Shown: positions 23,537 through 32,668 of the stretch, piece by piece
Layout: every line of letters starts with the position of its first letter
How positions within the stretch are numbered: the stretch's first letter is position 1
IMG/VR virus record: IMGVR_UViG_3300028048_000047
Coordinates: 1-64,000 of that record
DNA length: 64,000 bases
Source: a virus
Taxonomy: Duplodnaviria; Caudoviricetes
Reading direction: 5' to 3' (one strand)
Program-made: the position numbers and the translations under genes
The notes under the pieces: model-generated
What the model saw: only the letters and a program-made list of their open reading frames with translations
Databases searched by the model: none
Told to the model about the DNA's origin: nothing

Positions 23537-24835
23537 ATGTTAATTGATGAGTTACCTGGGGTATATTTTAAGGAAAAAGTTGCTTATGAATTAAGTGGAG
23601 AAGGTAGTAAAATACCTATTTTTATAGGTGCAAGTGGTAATACTGCATCCACAAATTCACAAAGTGGAGGTACTACTCAAAATGAGGCATCATCTTATGT
23701 TGTTGATGGTAGTACATATATCAAATTTAATAAATTAAGTGATGCTCTAAGACCTGTTGTTAAAAATGACACAACTAAATCTGATGGTACTGTTGTTAAA
23801 TGGCAAGAAGCAACTGGAATTGGTGAATATATTACTTATGATGCTAATGGAAATGCAACTTATCATGATGAAAACAAATTAGCGAAAAGAATCTACGAAT
23901 TTTACATGGAAAGTAAATTATTACAAAGTACAGATATTGGTGTACCTTATTTTTATGTAATTGATGTAGGTGCAGGCACTAATTTGAAAGCATGGGAAAC
24001 TGCATTGGAAACTGCTAAAACATTAACAGATGCAACAGTAGAATTTTATGTTGGAGCAGAAGGGATTACTGGGTGTACCTTAGAACAATTTTGTATAAAA
24101 GCAGTGGATAGTATTTTTGAAGATACAGAGGAATTAGATTTAAGGTATGGGTTTACTTACCTTAGTAAAACTTCAAGTGAAACATTAGCAGAATATGATG
24201 CAAGACTTATTACATTAGCAAATAATTTAAGAAGTCATTACAGTAGTACTCTTTATAAATTATCAAGATTTGGTCTTTGTGAAGAGTTATTAGTGGGTAA
24301 AACCATAGCAAGAATTTGTTGCACACCATATAATACTGAACCAGGGTTCTTCAAATATCGTAGTGTTACACCAAACACTTTTAATAAAAGGTTAAAAGAA
24401 GATATGAAAGACTTACAAGATGCAGGTATTATATTTAATCGTGATGAACAAGTGAATGGTAATAAATTACCTCGTATTAATTTATGTGTTTCATGTAGTT
24501 TTGGTTCAACAACTGACAGACCTGCTGATGCTTTATTCCATGCAAGGTTTAATGCAGATGATTTACTTCGTGAAGTCTTTGAAGTGTGTTATACTCAAAT
24601 TAAAGCAAATGAATCTGCTACAAACATAGCTTATCTTCAAACAATGATTAATAGAATTGTTAATAATCGTGTAGTTAATGAAGAAATGATTAAATACGAT
24701 GATAGAACTGAAATAGGTACTAAATTAACAGTTATAGAATCACATGAAGAACCTTATAATCTTATTGTAACTGGACAAATACAACCAGTAAAATGTACTA
24801 TTGCAATTAAGGTTGAAGCAGAAATAAAAATATAA
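23537..24835 (+). CDS. tail sheath protein
   Basis: N-terminal LPGVYFKE, IPIFIG, C-terminal V.G.IQPV...AI.V. Confidence 0.8.
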   Translation: MLIDELPGVYFKEKVAYELSGEGSKIPIFIGASGNTASTNSQSGGTTQNEASSYVVDGSTYIKFNKLSDALRPVVKNDTTKSDGTVVKWQEATGIGEYITYDANGNATYHDENKLAKRIYEFYMESKLLQSTDIGVPYFYVIDVGAGTNLKAWETALETAKTLTDATVEFYVGAEGITGCTLEQFCIKAVDSIFEDTEELDLRYGFTYLSKTSSETLAEYDARLITLANNLRSHYSSTLYKLSRFGLCEELLVGKTIARICCTPYNTEPGFFKYRSVTPNTFNKRLKEDMKDLQDAGIIFNRDEQVNGNKLPRINLCVSCSFGSTTDRPADALFHARFNADDLLREVFEVCYTQIKANESATNIAYLQTMINRIVNNRVVNEEMIKYDDRTEIGTKLTVIESHEEPYNLIVTGQIQPVKCTIAIKVEAEIKI

Positions 24836-24864
24836 AATTTATATTAAATGGAGTTGAGTGAACA

Positions 24865-25257
24865 ATGGTAAATGTAAAAAGATATAATCTTGCACAATTT
24901 GTATTTGATGGTGAACAAATTCCAGTAGGTAGTTTCAAAACCACAAGGAAACAAAGTACTGAAACATTAAATGCGTGTAATAGTCATAAACCATATGCAG
25001 TAATGTTCGGTAAAGAAGAATTAAGTTGGGAAGCAAGTGATATTGACCCAATTTACAGACCTTTCTTTGAAAAAGTAATGGATAATCAGAAAGCAGACCC
25101 TACTAATTTAGGTACTGTTGCTACATATGATTATAGTGAAATTACTTCCGATATATATGAAGATGATGCTTTTGGTGATGTATGGGTTGAAGAATTAAGT
25201 AAAGATACTGCTAACAAACCATTTTCGGCTAAGGGCAATGCTATGAGGATGGTATAA
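24865..25257 (+). CDS. tail tube protein
   Basis: 130 aa beta-rich protein directly after sheath. Confidence 0.7.
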   Translation: MVNVKRYNLAQFVFDGEQIPVGSFKTTRKQSTETLNACNSHKPYAVMFGKEELSWEASDIDPIYRPFFEKVMDNQKADPTNLGTVATYDYSEITSDIYEDDAFGDVWVEELSKDTANKPFSAKGNAMRMV

Positions 25258-25292
25258 ATATAATCCTCATAGTTTTTTTTATTATTTTTTTT
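25241..25292 (+). terminator. hairpin plus oligo-T terminator after tube gene
   Basis: CTATGAGGAT/ATCCTCATAG 10-bp stem then T8. Confidence 0.7.
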
Positions 25293-25302
25293 ATATTATT
25301 AT

Positions 25303-25349
25303 GTCCGAGCAGAATGTATAATATTTAGGTTCAAATCCTAACTCGGACT
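25303..25349 (+). ncRNA. tRNA-like minihelix (acceptor stem plus T-arm only)
   Basis: GTCCGAG/CTCGGAC 7 bp; TTAGG-TTCAAAT-CCTAA T-arm; 15-nt linker instead of D and anticodon arms. Confidence 0.7.
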
Positions 25350-25405
25350 TTTTTAAATAAAATTTACCATATTTTAACTTTTTTTTATAGGAGGTTTTGA
25401 AAGTT

Positions 25406-26203
25406 ATGGTTGAAGATAACAATATTGTACAAGAAAAGAAAACTGAAAAAAGAACACAAGCAGTCATTGACTTAGAAAAGAAATTATTGAAAACCACTTG
25501 GGTTAAAGAAGCAGAATTAATACAGAAATATGTTCCTAATGAAGATTTAACAAAAGGTCAAATCAAATTACTTGAAAAATGTATTAATAAAGAAGATTTC
25601 ACAGACAAACAATTCAAAGATTTAAAAGTACTACTTAACAAATATCGTACTTTATTAAATGATTTAAAACCTGAGGAAACAATAGAATCCGTTGATGAAG
25701 CATTACAGTTAATACAAACAGAACAAGACTTTTTGGATTTAATGGATGAAGAACAAAAAAAATATTTAACAGTACATTTACCTATGAGTAATGGTAATAT
25801 GTTAGAATTTGAATTTGAAGTATTACCTATCACAGACAGTAGAGTAGTTGAATCCTTAGAATTACAAATAGATTTGTTCCGTGATTTTAGTTTAGAAGAA
25901 ACTGCAACATATGCAACTGCATCACAAAAAGACCCAAGTAATAGAACACCACAAGAACAAAAAATACTTGACAAAATGAATAAAATGTTAAGTGAAAAAC
26001 TTGGACAACAAAAACTAAAAAGTGTAGATAATTTCCTTGCAAATCAATTATTACTAAAAGGAAGTAATGCAAATTTAGAAAAAAGACATGAATTTTGGGT
26101 TAAATTCCCATTCAATGCAAAATTCACAATATTCCTTGCAGTACAAAGAAGACTTGGAATAACCGAAGTTAATAATGAACAATTATTTCCGTTTGGTGAA
26201 TAG
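25406..26203 (+). CDS. tail assembly chaperone (gpG-like)
   Basis: between tube and tape measure; GGAGG RBS. Confidence 0.65.
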   Translation: MVEDNNIVQEKKTEKRTQAVIDLEKKLLKTTWVKEAELIQKYVPNEDLTKGQIKLLEKCINKEDFTDKQFKDLKVLLNKYRTLLNDLKPEETIESVDEALQLIQTEQDFLDLMDEEQKKYLTVHLPMSNGNMLEFEFEVLPITDSRVVESLELQIDLFRDFSLEETATYATASQKDPSNRTPQEQKILDKMNKMLSEKLGQQKLKSVDNFLANQLLLKGSNANLEKRHEFWVKFPFNAKFTIFLAVQRRLGITEVNNEQLFPFGE

Positions 26204-26378
26204 TTTTATGGGTGATGTTTACTTTGAAGTAAGTAAACATTTAAGATGCAGTCCTTATTATGTTATAAAAAACAAATTCAGACCTGACATAAGGTTCTTA
26301 ATAATGAAATATACTCAAATATTAAGAACAAAACAAAAAGAATATGAAAGAATAAAAGAAGAACAAGACAAATTCTAA
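26175..26378 (+). CDS. tail assembly chaperone second part (gpT-like)
   Basis: overlaps previous ORF in the +1 frame, immediately before tape measure; alternative ATG at 26208. Confidence 0.6.
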   Translation: MNNYFRLVNSFMGDVYFEVSKHLRCSPYYVIKNKFRPDIRFLIMKYTQILRTKQKEYERIKEEQDKF

Positions 26379-26431
26379 TAAAAAAAATATAGTTTTAAAA
26401 AAAATAAGATTATACCTAAGATGTGATACTG

Positions 26432-29400
26432 ATGACCGAAGAAGTGATATTACAGTTCATGGGCGAAGATAAAATAAGTAATGTAGTTTCTACTATTGAA
26501 TCAAATACATTAGCATCAATACAATCAATACAACAAGCAGTATCACAATTAAATGAAAGTGTATCAAATATGGGTACAGTAGATGGGAGTATTATTTTTG
26601 AAGGTGGAGGCTATGAGGAAACTGCTTCTGACCTTGATGATGTAGATGATAGTGCAGATAATGCAAGTTCAAGTGTAAAGGCATTTTCAGATTCTACACA
26701 AAAAGCATCAAACAGTAGTGGACAATTAGGGAAATCTACTGAGGAAGTACATTCACAAGTAGAGATGATTACTAAATCTACTGATAAGTCTGCCGATTCC
26801 GTAAAAGACTTAGGGGATGCTAATAAAAATGCTGAAAAAGATGTATCCAGTTTTTCAAGTGCATTAGGTAAAAATACTGATTCAAAAAATCAAAATGCTT
26901 CTGCTTCAAATAATGCGAAAAATTCGCAAAGTACATTTAGAAACGAAACAACTGGGGCAAAAGAAGCGACTGACAATTTTTCAGCGGCACTTAAAGATGT
27001 TAATACTAATTTATCAACATTAAGTGCGGGTTCTGCAATGTATCTTGCAGGACAAATGAGTAGTCTTGGAACAAGAATGGAAGACTCTGCAAAAAATTTA
27101 AATAATTTAAGCATAGGTCTTGGACAAGTTGCTAAAATGTCTGGTATGGCAGAAGGTGAAATGACAGATATGATTACACATATCAGTAATGAAACTTTCC
27201 CAAATGATGAAGCAATAATGTATACAAAAAATTTAGTGCAGATGGGTGTTGAATCTAAAAATTTTGCAGAACAAGCAACAAATATGGATAGAATTAATGA
27301 TGCTTTTGGATTAGGTGCAGAAACAACAAATAGTTTAGTAACAGAATTATCTGTTCTTGGAGTAGATGCGAATAATATTGCATCTTCATTTAATGCACTT
27401 GCTTATGCTAATGAAAACACCAAAGGTGGTATGGAGAACTTTTATTCTTTCCTTCGTAAATATGACTCAGAATTACATCAATTAGGTTATAATACTGACC
27501 AAGCGGCGATTATTATTTCTGCTGCGACTCAAAAATTTGGTGGAGGTAGGGCAGCGTTAGCAGGGTTAAGTGAGGCTCTTAAAGAAGCAGGTAGTGATAC
27601 TGGTGCGTTAGAATCTGCTTTAAACTTAAAATCAGGAGCATTACAACACGCTTCACAAGAAACTGCAAGTTATGAAGGACAATTACAATCTCTTGCCGAT
27701 GAACAAATGGAACATAAAACCATTTTAGAAAGGATTACTGCATTTACTGATGATTTATTATTAAGGAATGCAGGACTTGTTACATTGGGTCAATCAATTA
27801 TGGGTGTTTTTGGTCAAGGAGCAAATATTGGTTTAACTGTCTTTGGTTTGAAAGAAATGGGTCTTGCTATTGCGAATTGGGGTCATGCAGGTAAAGTATT
27901 AGATAGTACTATTGATAGATTAAAATTACTTCGTACTTCTTCACAAGAGGCTTCTAAGGCTATTTCTACAACTACTGCTGTGAATCCGAAAGCTATGACT
28001 ACTGTAAATCCTAAAACAATGAATATACCTTCGACTGGTGTTGGTAAGAATACTGGTAAAGTGGCTTCTGAAACTAAACAAGTTGTTGAAGGGGCGGCTA
28101 AGACAGGAGCAATGGCAGGTCCTGCTAATACGGCAGGGGCAAGTATGAAGGCTACTGGTACTGGTTTAAAGTCTATTGGTAGTGGTGCTTTATCTATGGT
28201 TGCTCCTTTACTTCAAATTAGTGTTGCAGTTATGATTTTGTTACCTGTTTTGGCTTTAATTGCCGCAGAAGCACTTCTTTTACTTAAAGGATTACAGATA
28301 CTTGTTAAAGCATTGGCTTTTGATAAGATTGATTTAACTAAGTCTATTGAAGGTATTAAACAAGTTGGTAAGGCTTTATGGGAGATTGGTGTTGCTATTG
28401 GTGCTATGGCAGTTACTTCCATTATAACTATGATTTCTACTCCAATTATTGTTCTTGGACAGATTGTTGCTCCTATTAATCAAATAGGACAAATGTTAGT
28501 TGATGTTGCAAGGGAGTTACAGATTTTTAATAGTATTAATATTGATAAGTCCATTCCTACTAAAATCAAGTCACTTTCCGATACTTTGAAACTTGTTAGT
28601 GATGCAATGGGAAGTTTAGGTAATTTGTCTTGGAATATGGCTTGGGGTAATCTTATTGGTATGATAATTGGGAATGTTGGTGATGCCGTTAGGAACGCAA
28701 GTAGAGAAATCATTAATGCAAGTAATGAACTTGATAAGATTAAAGATGTTCCTGATTTAGATAAAGGTGCTGTTGATAAGTTAAAAAAAGTCGGTACTGC
28801 TTTGGAGAGTGTTGGAAAGGCTATGGATGGTCTTAGGAGCATTCGTGATAGTCAGAATTTTGATATAAGTGGATTTGTTGGTGGATTATTTGGTGGAGCA
28901 AATATTGAACAGGCATTGAATAATGTTAAAGATGATGTTTATAAGGCTTCTTCTGCTTTGAAAAATTTTGATGGTGTAGATACTATTCCTGATGGTGTTG
29001 GGAATAATTTAAAGAAAGTCGCTGATGCTTTGAAGAGTGTTGGGGACAGTATGGAAGTACTCCGTAAACTTCGTGATGATTATAATTGGGATATAGGTAT
29101 TGGTTCATTATTTGGTGATAGTGATGTTGTAGGTACTCTTGATAAAATTAAAGAAGATTTAGTTAAAGTTAGTGGTTCTTTAAAGAGTCTTGGTGAAGCT
29201 GGTGGTTTAGAGAAGATTGGTGATGATGTTCCTAAGAAGATTAAGAAAGTTACTGATACATTGGATTCTGTTCTTAAATCTATTGATAAAATGAATGAGT
29301 TCCAAGGTAAAGGTGAAGGGAAACAAGGTAATGATTTTAGTAATATTGTTACTACTATTGATAATGCTCGAAGTTCTTTAATTGAAGTTAGTAAATCTTT

Positions 29401-30805
29401 ATCTAAATTAGGAAGTGATGGTGGTGAAGGTAGTGGTTTGGCTACTATTGGTGGTGAAGTCAAATCAAAACTAAAAACTGTGACAAAAGTTTTAAGTACT
29501 TTGGCTACTGCTATTAATAATTTGAAGGGTTTTCCTACTGTTAGTGGTGATGAGATTCCTAATCGTGTTGATAAGGCAGTTACTGTTATTCAGAATTCTG
29601 CAAGACATATGAATAATCTTAATGGTAGTCATAAAGTTAGTGGGGCTATTATAAGTGTTATTAGTTCTGTTGGTAAAGCAGGGAGAAGACTTGCTTCTGC
29701 AACTAATGCTTTGAAGGGTTTTCCTACTGTTAGTGGTGATGAGATTCCTAATCGTGTTGATAAGGCAGTTACTGTTATTCAGAATTCTGCAAGACATATG
29801 AATAATCTTAAAGGAACACCAAAAGTTAGTGGTGGTATTGTAAGCGTTATTAATTCTGTTGGTAAAGCAGGTAGGAGATTAAGTAGCGTTACTAATTCTT
29901 TGAAGGGTTTTCCTGTTGTGAGTGGTAATGAAATTCCTAATCGTGTTAAAAAGGCAGTTACTGCTGTTAAAAATACTGCTAAACAGTTAAATAAGTTGAA
30001 AGGTACTTCTGTTAAAGGAGGTATTGGAGGTATTTTAAATTCTGTTGCTAATGCAGTTAAAAGATTAAGGACAACTTTATCAAAAATGAGTGGTGGTTTT
30101 AAAACTGATGGTCAAAATATAGGTACTAATTTGAAAACTGGTATTAAAACTGGTTTAAATGGATTAGGAGATACTGTTAGTACTGCTGTTAATGATGCAA
30201 GTGGTAAAGCGAATCCTACTGCTACTACTATGGGTACTAATCTTGGTAAGAGTGCAGTAAATGGTTTTAAATCAAGTTTTCTTTTAGGAGAGGTTATTGC
30301 CGCAGAGATGTCTAATGGTTTAAATGCTATTACTACTGCTACACCTGATATTACTAATGCTATGGGAGCATTAGCAGAACAAATGGTTCAAGAATTTAAA
30401 AATCGTTCTCAAATTAAATCTCCTGGTGCTATTGCAAGAGCAATTCGTGCAGAAATGGGTTATATGAAAGAATTTGTTGTTGTTCACGGTAAAGGTGTAG
30501 TGTCTTCTGTTGGTGGTCTTGCAGATAATATAGTTAATACTTTTAAACCAAATCTTCAATCACAATTAAATGCTCTTAATGTTAATAATCGTTCGTTAAA
30601 TAGGAATAGGTTAAATACTTTGAATAGTATGACTGATAGGAATTCAATGAATGAAAATAATCAAAGACCAGTTACTATTGTGTTTAATGAAGGTGCAGTA
30701 CAGTTAGATGCAAGGAACTTAACCACACAAGAATCAAGACAAGTGTTACTTAATGCTATTGAAGGTTTAGATGTTGTTGAAAGTGTAAATATTAAAGGAG
30801 CATAA
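26432..30805 (+). CDS. tape measure protein
   Basis: about 1460 aa helical Ala/Gly/Ser-rich, hydrophobic segment, IKSPG near C-terminus, synteny. Confidence 0.9.
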   Translation: MTEEVILQFMGEDKISNVVSTIESNTLASIQSIQQAVSQLNESVSNMGTVDGSIIFEGGGYEETASDLDDVDDSADNASSSVKAFSDSTQKASNSSGQLGKSTEEVHSQVEMITKSTDKSADSVKDLGDANKNAEKDVSSFSSALGKNTDSKNQNASASNNAKNSQSTFRNETTGAKEATDNFSAALKDVNTNLSTLSAGSAMYLAGQMSSLGTRMEDSAKNLNNLSIGLGQVAKMSGMAEGEMTDMITHISNETFPNDEAIMYTKNLVQMGVESKNFAEQATNMDRINDAFGLGAETTNSLVTELSVLGVDANNIASSFNALAYANENTKGGMENFYSFLRKYDSELHQLGYNTDQAAIIISAATQKFGGGRAALAGLSEALKEAGSDTGALESALNLKSGALQHASQETASYEGQLQSLADEQMEHKTILERITAFTDDLLLRNAGLVTLGQSIMGVFGQGANIGLTVFGLKEMGLAIANWGHAGKVLDSTIDRLKLLRTSSQEASKAISTTTAVNPKAMTTVNPKTMNIPSTGVGKNTGKVASETKQVVEGAAKTGAMAGPANTAGASMKATGTGLKSIGSGALSMVAPLLQISVAVMILLPVLALIAAEALLLLKGLQILVKALAFDKIDLTKSIEGIKQVGKALWEIGVAIGAMAVTSIITMISTPIIVLGQIVAPINQIGQMLVDVARELQIFNSINIDKSIPTKIKSLSDTLKLVSDAMGSLGNLSWNMAWGNLIGMIIGNVGDAVRNASREIINASNELDKIKDVPDLDKGAVDKLKKVGTALESVGKAMDGLRSIRDSQNFDISGFVGGLFGGANIEQALNNVKDDVYKASSALKNFDGVDTIPDGVGNNLKKVADALKSVGDSMEVLRKLRDDYNWDIGIGSLFGDSDVVGTLDKIKEDLVKVSGSLKSLGEAGGLEKIGDDVPKKIKKVTDTLDSVLKSIDKMNEFQGKGEGKQGNDFSNIVTTIDNARSSLIEVSKSLSKLGSDGGEGSGLATIGGEVKSKLKTVTKVLSTLATAINNLKGFPTVSGDEIPNRVDKAVTVIQNSARHMNNLNGSHKVSGAIISVISSVGKAGRRLASATNALKGFPTVSGDEIPNRVDKAVTVIQNSARHMNNLKGTPKVSGGIVSVINSVGKAGRRLSSVTNSLKGFPVVSGNEIPNRVKKAVTAVKNTAKQLNKLKGTSVKGGIGGILNSVANAVKRLRTTLSKMSGGFKTDGQNIGTNLKTGIKTGLNGLGDTVSTAVNDASGKANPTATTMGTNLGKSAVNGFKSSFLLGEVIAAEMSNGLNAITTATPDITNAMGALAEQMVQEFKNRSQIKSPGAIARAIRAEMGYMKEFVVVHGKGVVSSVGGLADNIVNTFKPNLQSQLNALNVNNRSLNRNRLNTLNSMTDRNSMNENNQRPVTIVFNEGAVQLDARNLTTQESRQVLLNAIEGLDVVESVNIKGA
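29522..29965 (+). repeat. 189-bp-period repeat (63 aa) in tape measure
   Basis: TTGAAGGGTTTTCCT... at 29522, 29711, 29900. Confidence 0.9.
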
Positions 30806-31393: not shown

Positions 31394-32668
31394 ATGGCTG
31401 ATTGGGATACTACTCCTGGTAGAACTGGTAGAAGGACTATTGACCAAATCATGGATAAAACCAATAGTGGAAGTAGTAGCAGTAGTAGTGGGAGTGATAA
31501 TAGTAGTGATAGTTCTTCGTCATCTGATAGTGATTCTACAAAGAAAACAAAAGTTAAACCTGACCTTCGTAAAACTTATAAGGAAGTACCAATACCAGTT
31601 CCTAAGAAAAGATATGGTATGCCAAGTAGGTATAGTGTTAGTAGAGCAGGAGTAGAATTATATGAAACTGATGAGGATAATTATGAACCATATGTTCCAA
31701 CTGGGAGTGCAGGTGGAGGTACAACAACTGTTGAAGATGAAAGTGTAGATAGTGATGATGAAGATAACACACCAGGATTTAGTTTACATATGGGTGAAGT
31801 CTTAAAAATTCACTATGAAGATGAACTGAATAGTATTAGTTTTGAAAGTGATTATAAGGACATGAATAATAATGCCAGTATTAGATTAGATGATATAAAT
31901 CTTAAAAAAGCATACAAAGGGGTAAGGCTTAAATTATTATCTGAATGGGATTCAATAGATAAAATTAAATTCCAATGGGAAGATTTAAAAGAAGCAATAG
32001 AAGGTTTCATTACAGAACAAAAATTCACAGATACCGAAGTTGAAGTGACAGTAAGTGGAATGACAAAAACATTGGAAATGAAATATAAATTTGATTTCAA
32101 ACAAATGTATCGGTCTGAAATAATAAATCAAGTTATATTAACTGCTGGATTAAAACCAGTATTAAATTTTGAAGGTTTAGAAGATGATATAATTGATTTC
32201 AAAAATTATTCTGAATCAGATAGCAGTAGTGGAAGTACTGGTGATGTTAAAATTAAGTCAACAGGTAGTAAAGTTTTAGATGAAGTTGTTAAAAAAGCAA
32301 TTGCAGGAAAAACAGATGATTTAGAAAAAGCAAAAGCAATATTTGAAGCATTTAAAGAACATTGTTATTATGAAGGTTATTCAGATTGTCAGTATCCTAA
32401 TGATATTGAGAAAGCATGGAATGATGCACATATAAATTGTGCTGATGGAGCGAATGTTTTATGTGCAATGTATCTTGCCGCAGGTTTAAATTCCGTTATT
32501 GTCCATGTTAATAATCATTATATTGTTAAAACTGAAATTAATGGTAAAAGTTATCTTTCAGACAGTTCAGGGGCAGAAGGAGCGCATAATACAAGACCAT
32601 TTGGGGAGGTATTCACCTATGATGGTGTTACAAGTGGTTCTGTTGTGGGTACACATTTAGATTATTAA
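31394..32668 (+). CDS. baseplate hub N-terminal part fused to transglutaminase-like (papain-fold) domain
   Basis: EGFIT...VTVSGMTKTLE...RSEIINQV..TAGL; INCADGANVL...HY...LSDSS (Cys-His-Asp). Confidence 0.65.
   Translation: MADWDTTPGRTGRRTIDQIMDKTNSGSSSSSSGSDNSSDSSSSSDSDSTKKTKVKPDLRKTYKEVPIPVPKKRYGMPSRYSVSRAGVELYETDEDNYEPYVPTGSAGGGTTTVEDESVDSDDEDNTPGFSLHMGEVLKIHYEDELNSISFESDYKDMNNNASIRLDDINLKKAYKGVRLKLLSEWDSIDKIKFQWEDLKEAIEGFITEQKFTDTEVEVTVSGMTKTLEMKYKFDFKQMYRSEIINQVILTAGLKPVLNFEGLEDDIIDFKNYSESDSSSGSTGDVKIKSTGSKVLDEVVKKAIAGKTDDLEKAKAIFEAFKEHCYYEGYSDCQYPNDIEKAWNDAHINCADGANVLCAMYLAAGLNSVIVHVNNHYIVKTEINGKSYLSDSSGAEGAHNTRPFGEVFTYDGVTSGSVVGTHLDY

What the first reader, a model, noticed from the sequence alone, without database searches (positions are those of the whole stretch)
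25303..25349. tRNA-like minihelix (acceptor stem + T-arm only) punctuating the tail operon
Seen: GTCCGAG (25303-09) pairs perfectly with CTCGGAC (25342-48). Stacked directly on it is a canonical T-arm: 5-bp stem TTAGG/CCTAA with the 7-nt loop TTCAAAT (GGTTCAAATCC). D and anticodon arms are replaced by a 15-nt linker, and a T-run follows. It is a GC-rich island lying between the tube-gene terminator and the chaperone/tape-measure genes. Established: RNase P, tRNase Z and the CCA-adding enzyme recognise this top half of tRNA. Inference: the virus uses a tRNA mimic either to have host RNases cut the late mRNA between high-copy (sheath, tube) and low-copy (chaperone, TMP) genes, or to release a small decoy RNA. 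An attP core would not need the paired 5' acceptor strand.
Basis: partly seen in the sequence, partly recalled or inferred. Interest (0 to 1): 0.85.

Follow-up and report, generated by a model that had tools for sequence, protein, structure and literature searches.

The report
Conserved tRNA-top-half minihelix after tail-tube gene
A 47-base RNA element shaped like the top half of a tRNA (acceptor stem plus T-arm, no anticodon) sits just after the tail-tube gene of a clade of large Methanobrevibacter viruses. Its pairing is kept by compensatory mutations, so it is a real functional structure, most likely a cutting signal for the host's tRNA-trimming enzymes.

Summary
**Observation: confirmed.** Window 25303-25349 (+) folds as a 7-bp acceptor-like stem stacked on a canonical T-arm (TTAGG/TTCAAAT/CCTAA), with a 15-nt linker where the D and anticodon arms would be. 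A descriptor for this shape is expected 0.01 times by chance in the 196-kb genome.

**Conservation.**
- I found eight distinct variants in related Methanobrevibacter-type viruses.
- All are single-copy, on the + strand, 41-63 nt after the tail-tube gene.
- Five of the 7 acceptor pairs show two-sided compensatory changes. The T-arm is essentially invariant. The linker varies from 5 to 25 nt.

**What it is not.**
- It is not a tRNA (ARAGORN and Rfam negative).
- It is not a copy of a host tRNA 3' half. No Methanobrevibacter tRNA matched in the GTDB species-representative scan, and 151 Methanobacteriaceae genomes gave no model hit.
- It is not the remnant of a full tRNA seen in relatives.

**Best reading (about 0.5).** It is a t-element-like signal on the late transcript, cut by host RNase P and RNase Z. 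It is tied to the 3' end of the sheath-tube message. No RNA data could be obtained, so cleavage is inferred.

**Rivals.** A trans-acting small RNA, a 3'-end guard, or a DNA-level site.

**Novelty and earlier scan.** New variant of a known kind; interest about 0.6. The scan has noted other minihelix-like elements on unrelated DNA, but not this one.

The parts
25240..25273 (+). Hairpin spanning the tube-gene stop codon (11-bp outer stem), terminator-like or a 3'-end guard
   Evidence: Fold. An equivalent hairpin of different sequence spans the stop codon in all relatives examined.
25273..25292 (+). Two T8 runs (25273-25280 and 25285-25292), archaeal-type oligo-T termination signals after the tube gene
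   Evidence: Sequence. T-runs are conserved in all relatives. Their termination function is inferred from established knowledge of archaeal transcription.
25301..25302 (+). Conserved A(-2) T(-1) directly before the 5' strand
   Evidence: AT precedes position 1 in 7 of 7 variants of the main clade, while positions -3 and -4 vary.
25303..25309 (+). 5' strand of the 7-bp acceptor-like stem (GTCCGAG)
   Evidence: Five of 7 pairs carry two-sided compensatory changes.
25310..25324 (+). Unpaired linker replacing the D and anticodon arms (15 nt here, 5-25 nt in relatives, sequence not conserved)
   Evidence: The TGTATAAT inside it occurs at chance frequency in the window.
25325..25341 (+). T-arm: 5-bp stem TTAGG/CCTAA closed by G53-C61, with the 7-nt loop TTCAAAT (T54 T55 C56 A57 A58)
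   Evidence: It is identical in 6 of 8 variants; L132 has one loop change and L106 one stem mismatch.
25342..25348 (+). 3' strand of the acceptor-like stem (CTCGGAC), directly abutting the T-stem to give a 12-bp coaxial stack
25349..25354 (+). Discriminator-like T followed by a T-run (T6 in all)
   Evidence: The discriminator is T in 6 of 7 main-clade variants and A in L029. A T-run follows immediately in 3 of 7 (window, L030, L132) and lies 8-24 nt further on in the other four, L097 among them.
25352..25359 (+). TATA-like box TTTAAATA, 54 nt before the next start codon; candidate promoter of the downstream genes
   Evidence: TATA-like boxes lie 32-54 nt upstream of the next gene in 5 of 7 variants. 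Function is inferred.
24865..25257 (+). Tail-tube gene (130 aa)
   Evidence: AlphaFold model with pLDDT 78. Foldseek matches the tube proteins of diffocin, phage 812, PVC and AFP, TM 0.65-0.71.
23537..24835 (+). Tail-sheath gene (432 aa)
   Evidence: Model with pLDDT 84. Foldseek matches the sheath proteins of phage 812, CD1363 and PVC.
25406..26378 (+). Two overlapping ORFs (265 aa and 67 aa) in the position of tail-assembly chaperones, preceded by GGAGG at 25390-25394
   Evidence: ORFs. No Pfam or PHROG hit. The role is inferred from gene order only.
26423..30805 (+). Tape-measure protein gene (1460 aa)
   Evidence: PHROG tape-measure families. PF10145 is recorded in relatives.

Best explanation
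The element is a virus-encoded tRNA-like processing signal (a 't-element') carried on the + strand late transcript that reads out of the sheath and tube genes.

**Proposed mechanism.**
- As RNA it folds into the 12-bp acceptor/T-arm stack that tRNA-maturation enzymes recognise by shape.
- Host RNase P would cut between U(-1) and position 1 (25302/25303). That ends the abundant sheath-tube message, which can then be trimmed back to its own stop-codon hairpin.
- Host RNase Z would then cut after the discriminator (25349).
- This would free a minihelix RNA of about 47 nt and separate any read-through RNA from the downstream low-copy genes (chaperone-position ORFs, tape measure).

**Shown.**
- The structure, its strand, its single-copy syntenic position, and selection on pairing.
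- An invariant T-loop.
- No identity to any host tRNA.
- Host-type genomes carry RNase P RNA and RNase Z.

**Inferred.**
- That the element is transcribed.
- That these enzymes cut it.
- That this changes expression.
For: 1. **Eight distinct variants in related viruses.** Acceptor pairs are GTCCGAG/CTCGGAC, GTCTGAG/CTCAGAC, GTTTGAG/CTCAAAC, GTCTGAA/TTCAGAC, ATCTAAG/CTTAGAT and others. Of all cells, 97.9% are paired, 5 of 7 acceptor pairs changed on both sides, and no shuffle or slid register comes close.
2. **Each variant folds to the minihelix on its own**.
3. **The T-arm is under strong constraint.** Its 17-mer is invariant, while four-fold-type sites of the adjacent tube gene are only 60-78% identical.
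4. **The acceptor is recognised by shape, not sequence.** Its sequence and the discriminator are not conserved, but the 7+5 bp geometry and the T-loop are. That fits enzymes which read shape (RNase P, RNase Z) and argues against a synthetase. Methanogen RNase Z enzymes process arm-less pre-tRNAs, provided an acceptor stem and a mature 5' end exist (PMC7479834).
5. **The 5' junction is conserved.** A(-2)U(-1) is present in 7 of 7 main-clade variants beside otherwise variable flanks.
6. **The + strand RNA is favoured.** L097 has a U-G pair, and the loop reads as a T-loop only on the + strand.
7. **There is no own promoter.** No TATA-like box lies at a fixed distance upstream of position 1, which argues against a separate promoter.
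8. **The element stays with the tube gene.** It lies 41-63 nt after the tube stop codon even where a methyltransferase gene is inserted downstream, in L094 and L132.
9. **The host machinery exists.** Methanobrevibacter-genus genomes encode RNase P RNA and RNase Z. The virus encodes no CCA-adding enzyme or RtcB.
10. **There is precedent.** Plant-mitochondrial t-elements were found with the same GGTTCRANYCC motif and define mRNA 3' and 5' ends through RNase P and Z (PMC1920247). Haloferax t-elements are cut by RNase P and tRNase Z in vivo (PMC4326828).
Against:
- Two T8 runs and a hairpin lie between the tube gene and the element. Most polymerases may stop before reaching it.
- TATA-like boxes just 3' of the element suggest that the downstream genes have their own promoter. 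If so, 'cutting apart' a polycistronic RNA may matter little.
- The element is dispensable. L130, sister to carriers, lacks it cleanly, and most of the wider family never had it.
- The complete invariance of the T-stem, with no covariation there, is more than shape-reading enzymes would need.
Confidence: 0.5

Rival explanations
1. It is a small RNA that works in trans. The minihelix, however it is released, is the product that matters. It would be an anticodon-less mini-tRNA, possibly CCA-tailed by the host. It could act as a decoy or sponge for a host factor that binds the tRNA top half, such as a tRNA-directed defence nuclease, a maturation or modification enzyme, or an elongation factor.
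For: - The invariant T-stem and T-loop go beyond what a mere cleavage signal needs.
- A T-run follows immediately after the discriminator in 3 of 7 variants, as behind archaeal RNA genes.
- The element occurs once per genome and is virus-specific.
- Released t-element RNAs are stable and receive non-encoded C or CCA in plant mitochondria (PMC1920247).
Against: - No TATA box lies at a fixed distance upstream.
- The acceptor sequence and discriminator vary, so no single sequence-specific partner at that end is conserved.
- The element has been lost without replacement in L130.
- No RNA data exist.
Confidence: 0.2
2. It is a 3'-end guard or terminator module without endonucleolytic cutting. Read-through transcripts of the tube gene would end at the T-run after the minihelix. 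The compact tRNA-like hairpin would protect that 3' end from 3'-to-5' exonucleases, as a second isoform beside the one that ends at the stop-codon hairpin.
For: - The element lies after a series of T-runs and is followed by another T-run.
- It keeps a constant distance to the tube stop codon.
- The stop-codon hairpin shows that this family does use 3' hairpins.
Against: - A guard hairpin does not need a canonical 7-nt T-loop kept letter for letter, a 7+5 bp geometry, or an open linker of 5-25 nt.
- In 4 of 7 variants the next T-run is 8-24 nt away.
- The terminator-like scan finds nothing here.
Confidence: 0.12
3. It is a DNA-level site: nested inverted repeats bound by a viral or host protein, or used for recombination. 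One example would be a hot spot where accessory genes such as the methyltransferase are inserted.
For: - Concerted change of both half-sites can also arise at palindromic protein-binding sites.
- A methyltransferase gene sits directly downstream in two separate sub-clades.
- The element lies next to candidate promoter boxes.
Against: - The distance between the two 7-nt half-sites varies from 22 to 42 bp, which does not suit a dimeric binder.
- L097 has a T-G pair, and the loop has the tRNA consensus on one strand only.
- No host tRNA or host site matches, so it is not an att core.
Confidence: 0.08
4. It is a decaying remnant of a former viral or captured tRNA gene with no present function.
For: - The element is dispensable in L130 and absent from most of the wider family.
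- L097 carries an extra hairpin in the linker that could be read as a vestigial arm.
Against: - Compensatory changes at 5 of 7 stem pairs and an invariant 17-nt T-arm sit beside sites that are 22-40% diverged.
- No relative has a full tRNA at this place.
- No host tRNA resembles it.
Confidence: 0.03

Closest known systems
t-elements of plant mitochondria (Forner et al. 2007, PMC1920247)
   Same: - They are tRNA-like elements recognised by the GGTTCRANYCC T-arm motif plus an acceptor-like stem.
- They lie next to mRNA ends.
- RNase P cleavage makes the 3' end of the upstream mRNA (ccmC, nad6, orf138), often followed by exonucleolytic trimming.
- The freed t-element RNA is stable.
   Different: - Those are organellar and mostly keep a non-canonical cloverleaf.
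- Here the host is an archaeon, the carrier is a virus, and the D and anticodon arms are wholly replaced by a short variable linker.
- Cleavage has not been shown here.
Haloferax volcanii t-element upstream of 5S rRNA, and other tRNA-like elements (Hölzle et al. 2008 and 2012, cited in PMC4326828 and PMC3296008)
   Same: It is an archaeal tRNA-like structure cut by tRNase Z and RNase P, and it is used as a processing signal for a non-tRNA transcript in vivo.
   Different: - It is chromosomal, sits in the rRNA operon and belongs to a haloarchaeon.
- There is no sequence relation, and no Rfam family matches the present element.
MALAT1 / mascRNA and MEN-beta tRNA-like 3'-end processing in mammals (from my own knowledge: Wilusz, Freier and Spector 2008)
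   Same: A tRNA-like structure lies just downstream of an abundant transcript. RNase P forms that transcript's 3' end, and RNase Z plus CCA addition release a small tRNA-like RNA.
   Different: It is eukaryotic and nuclear, keeps a cloverleaf-like fold, and the upstream RNA is protected by a triple helix rather than a hairpin.
Phage RNase P substrates: the C4 antisense RNA precursor of P1/P7 and phi80 M3 RNA (listed in PMC11143913)
   Same: They are virus-encoded non-tRNA RNAs matured by host RNase P through an acceptor-stem-like helix.
   Different: They come from bacterial phages, have no T-arm mimic, and the products are regulatory antisense RNAs with known targets.
Synthetic acceptor/T-arm minihelices (reviewed in PMC4695843)
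   Same: They have the same 12-bp coaxial acceptor plus T-arm design. Such minihelices are known to serve RNase P, the CCA-adding enzyme and some synthetases in vitro.
   Different: - They are laboratory constructs joined without a linker.
- The natural element has a 5-25 nt bulge between the strands, and no synthetase identity set is conserved.

Membership tests
Canonical tRNA (Rfam RF00005) | Cloverleaf with a D-arm and an anticodon arm | tested here: not met
   ARAGORN finds no tRNA in the window or the genome. Rfam cmscan at E up to 10 gives no tRNA hit over 24800-25800. The linker is 5-25 nt and not conserved.
Canonical tRNA (Rfam RF00005) | 7-bp acceptor stem stacked on a 5-bp T-stem, with the loop T54-T55-C56-R57-A58 and the G53-C61 pair | tested here: met
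t-elements (tRNA-like processing signals) | GGTTCRANYCC T-arm motif inside a tRNA-like fold that has an acceptor-like stem | tested here: met
   GGTTCAAATCC at 25328-25338. The motif definition is from PMC1920247.
t-elements (tRNA-like processing signals) | Ends of the element coincide with RNA termini made by RNase P and RNase Z | not testable with these tools
t-elements (tRNA-like processing signals) | The host has RNase P and RNase Z | tested here: met
   RF00373 and TIGR02651 score over their cut-offs in two Methanobrevibacter-genus genomes.
t-elements (tRNA-like processing signals) | The element lies within a transcribed region next to an mRNA end | tested here: inconclusive
   It is on the same strand as all genes, 45 nt after the tube stop codon. 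However, two T8 runs precede it and a TATA-like box follows it.
attP / integration core copied from a host tRNA 3' half | Exact identity to the 3' part of a host tRNA gene | tested here: not met
   - The 17-mer GGTTCAAATCCTAACTC has 62 hits in 185,579 species genomes, and none is a Methanobrevibacter tRNA.
- The best host tRNA top half shares 20 of 31 positions.
- The model gives no hit in 151 Methanobacteriaceae genomes.
Intrinsic-terminator-like hairpin | Uninterrupted G+C-rich stem-loop immediately followed by a T-run | tested here: not met
   The terminator scan finds none in 24700-25600. A T-run follows immediately in only 3 of 7 variants.

The most novel reading that the evidence does not exclude
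The freed minihelix is a matured, CCA-tailed, anticodon-less 'mini-tRNA' made by an archaeal virus. It would act in trans as a decoy for a host factor that binds the tRNA top half, such as a tRNA-directed defence nuclease or a maturation or modification enzyme. That would make it the first viral tRNA-top-half mimic with a trans function in archaea.
Probability: 0.15. Interest if true: 0.85.

Novelty: new variant of a known kind. Interest (0 to 1): 0.6.

Why it matters
tRNA-like processing signals are known from organelles, eukaryotic nuclei and one haloarchaeal rRNA operon. I found none described in the literature I searched for a virus of archaea, or for a tailed virus's structural operon.

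If RNase P and RNase Z cut here, it would show that methanogen viruses recruit the host tRNA-maturation machinery to shape late mRNAs. Gene expression in these viruses is almost unstudied.

The element is small, occurs naturally in at least eight compensated variants, and has a natural deletion (L130). That makes it an unusually clean system for testing substrate rules of archaeal RNase P and RNase Z. It could also serve as a compact processing tag for methanogen genetics, as Haloferax t-elements already do.

Tried and rejected
- **Host tRNA copy or attP.** An exact-word scan of GTDB species genomes, mismatch scans in 26 Methanobrevibacter genomes, a comparison with 64 host tRNAs, and a model search in 151 genomes found nothing.
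- **Repeated family within the genome.** There is only one copy.
- **Full tRNA at this site in relatives.** None was found in 45 loci.
- **Known RNA family.** No Rfam match beyond noise.
- **Small ORF starting at the conserved ATG.** Its length would range from 3 aa to read-through. It is not conserved, and L132 has ATA at that place (sequences).
- **Own promoter.** No TATA-like box lies at a fixed distance upstream.
It occurs 10 times against 12.4 expected in the window, and it is absent from most variants.
- **More family members in IMG/VR.** The exact 24-mer and 20-mer gave no hits. The T-arm 17-mer gave 116 loci that are mostly phage tRNAs, with no strong model hit.
- **MAFFT alignment of the element.** MAFFT broke the 5' strand. 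I used a covariance model built from three cleanly aligned variants instead. The resulting alignment leans towards the model's structure, but each variant also folds to it independently.
- **Missing loci.** DNA for four closer relatives (P0006, P0007, P0016 and one P0012 contig) was not retrievable.

Full report
**Context.** The window is the first 64 kb of a 195,936-bp IMG/VR virus record with 26% G+C, estimated complete. All large ORFs lie on the + strand.
- The 432-aa protein (23537-24835) models as a contractile-tail sheath.
- The 130-aa protein (24865-25257) models as a tail tube, with TM about 0.7 to the tubes of diffocin, phage 812 and PVC.
- 26423-30805 is a tape-measure protein.
- Two overlapping ORFs, 25406-26378, occupy the chaperone position but have no family hit.
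- Sheath homologues number in the hundreds. Where they are named, they are assigned to Methanobrevibacter. The 'methanogen virus' setting is therefore reasonable.

**The observation.** It consists of a 7-bp perfect stem (25303-09 with 25342-48), a directly stacked T-arm (TTAGG, loop TTCAAAT, CCTAA), a 15-nt linker and a T6 run.
- It is the minimum-free-energy fold both alone and in context.
- A descriptor for this shape matches once in the genome. It matched 0.01 times per genome in 100 composition-matched simulations.
- ARAGORN and Rfam do not call it.

**Relatives.** I anchored on the sheath protein and fetched the syntenic region from 24 IMG/VR loci, 31 metagenome loci and 13 assembly contigs. 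The gene order sheath, tube, intergenic, 250-aa ORF, 65-aa ORF, tape measure is conserved throughout.
- In the clade nearest the window (sheath identity 56-78%) the element is present in seven distinct forms. An eighth, more divergent form occurs in L106.
- A covariance model built from three cleanly aligned variants finds exactly these eight. Each is found once per locus, always on the + strand just after the tube gene. It finds nothing convincing in 38 other related loci, in the rest of the genome, or in 151 Methanobacteriaceae genomes.
- On a sheath tree, seven carriers form one strongly supported clade together with L130, which has lost the element. L106 sits in a neighbouring branch.

**Selection on structure.**
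- Across the eight variants, 97.9% of the pair cells are standard pairs. Five of the 7 acceptor-like pairs changed on both sides: positions 1, 3, 4, 5 and 7, for example C-G to U-A and G-C to A-U. No column shuffle reaches the observed covariation score, and no slid register comes close. RNAalifold gives the same count.
- The alignment was fitted to the model, which favours the structure. However, every variant also folds into the minihelix as its own minimum-free-energy structure.
- The 17-nt T-arm is unchanged in six variants, with one loop change in L132 and one stem mismatch in L106. By contrast, four-fold-type codon positions of the neighbouring tube gene are only 60-78% identical.
- The linker ranges from 5 to 25 nt and is not conserved. 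In L097 it forms an extra small hairpin.
- A U-G pair in L097, and a loop that is a T-loop only on the + strand, favour the + strand RNA.

**What it is not.**
- *Not an attP core or a captured host tRNA half.* The 17-mer from the T-loop into the 3' strand occurs 62 times in 185,579 species genomes, mostly inside coding regions, and never in a Methanobrevibacter tRNA. Mismatch scans of 26 genomes of that genus and a comparison with 64 of their tRNAs give no close relative. The best shares 20 of 31 top-half positions, and host T-stems are G+C-rich.
- *Not a deletion remnant seen in the making.* None of 45 related loci has a tRNA.
- *Not a small ORF.* The conserved ATG is followed by frames ranging from 3 aa to read-through.

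**Anatomy of the surroundings.**
- In every variant the tube gene ends in a hairpin that spans the stop codon and is followed by T-runs.
- The element follows 41-63 nt after the stop codon.
- A(-2)U(-1) precedes position 1 in 7 of 7 main-clade variants.
- No TATA-like box lies at a fixed distance upstream. TATA-like boxes do lie just 3' of the element, 32-54 nt before the next start codon.
- In L094 and L132 a DNA methyltransferase gene is inserted between the element and the chaperone-position gene. The element stays with the tube gene, and no second copy precedes the chaperone gene.
- L130, sister to carriers, lacks the element cleanly.

**Mechanism.** The pattern is a shape-conserving, sequence-free acceptor stem, a fixed 7+5 bp geometry, an invariant T-loop and a conserved nucleotide at -1.
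- That is what enzymes recognising the tRNA top half by shape would select.
- Methanogen RNase Z enzymes process pre-tRNAs lacking the D, T or anticodon arm, provided an acceptor stem and a mature 5' end are present (PMC7479834).
- t-elements are RNase P and RNase Z substrates in Haloferax in vivo (PMC4326828).
- In plant mitochondria, t-elements found by the same GGTTCRANYCC motif define mRNA 3' ends through RNase P cleavage followed by trimming (PMC1920247).
- Methanobrevibacter-genus genomes carry RNase P RNA and RNase Z. The virus has no CCA-adding enzyme or RtcB of its own.

I therefore read the element as a t-element tied to the 3' end of the sheath-tube message. RNase P would cut at 25302/25303, RNase Z after 25349, and a minihelix of about 47 nt would be released. 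I give this about 0.5.

The weak points are these:
- There are no RNA data.
- Strong T-runs lie upstream.
- The downstream genes probably have their own promoter.
- The element is dispensable.
- The T-stem is more invariant than shape recognition requires.

The rivals are a trans-acting small RNA (0.2), a 3'-end guard without cleavage (0.12), a DNA-level site (0.08) and a functionless remnant (0.03).

**Novelty.** The kind (tRNA-like processing signal, minihelix) is known. This form is not in Rfam: an arm-less top half with a variable linker, in the tail operon of archaeal viruses, with natural compensated variants. It did not turn up in the literature searches. The scan has noted other minihelix-like elements in unrelated bacterial and phage DNA, but nothing resembling this sequence.

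Noticed in passing
L094:5030-5110 and L132:4720-4800: An N6/N4 DNA methyltransferase gene is inserted right after the minihelix in two separate sub-clades. Both copies carry a G9 homopolymer about 60 nt into the ORF that splits the reading frame. This could be a phase-variable or frameshift site, or an assembly error.
   Followed up: no
L130:4965-5058: A close relative (sheath 60% identical, sister to the carriers L094 and L134) lacks the minihelix cleanly, while the flanking AATCAT..AT and T-run/GGAGG context is kept. It is a natural deletion control.
   Followed up: partly
window 25240-25280 and the same place in L029, L030, L094, L097, L106, L130, L132, L134: A hairpin spanning the tube-gene stop codon and followed by a T-run is kept in all relatives, although its sequence differs. 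It looks like a bacterial-type intrinsic terminator in an archaeal virus.
   Followed up: partly
L097:4750-4774: The 25-nt linker of this variant forms an extra 6-bp hairpin with a GAAG loop, giving a three-helix form of the element.
   Followed up: no
L193, L196, L253, L277, L284 (IMG/VR loci): Unrelated phages with 43-45% G+C share a recurrent minihelix-like unit. It consists of GCATCAC, 17 nt, the same T-arm 17-mer, GTAATGC, then AACCA. It may be another arm-less tRNA-like element.
   Followed up: no
L008:5603-5664, L010:5560-5648, L014:5582-5680, L105:3365-3592: More distant family members that lack the minihelix carry different, lineage-specific G+C-rich hairpins in the same tube-to-chaperone spacer.
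   Followed up: no
window 31394-32668: A protein in the baseplate region has a transglutaminase-like core domain (PF01841, E 1.4e-6). It is possibly a pseudomurein-cleaving enzyme.
   Followed up: no
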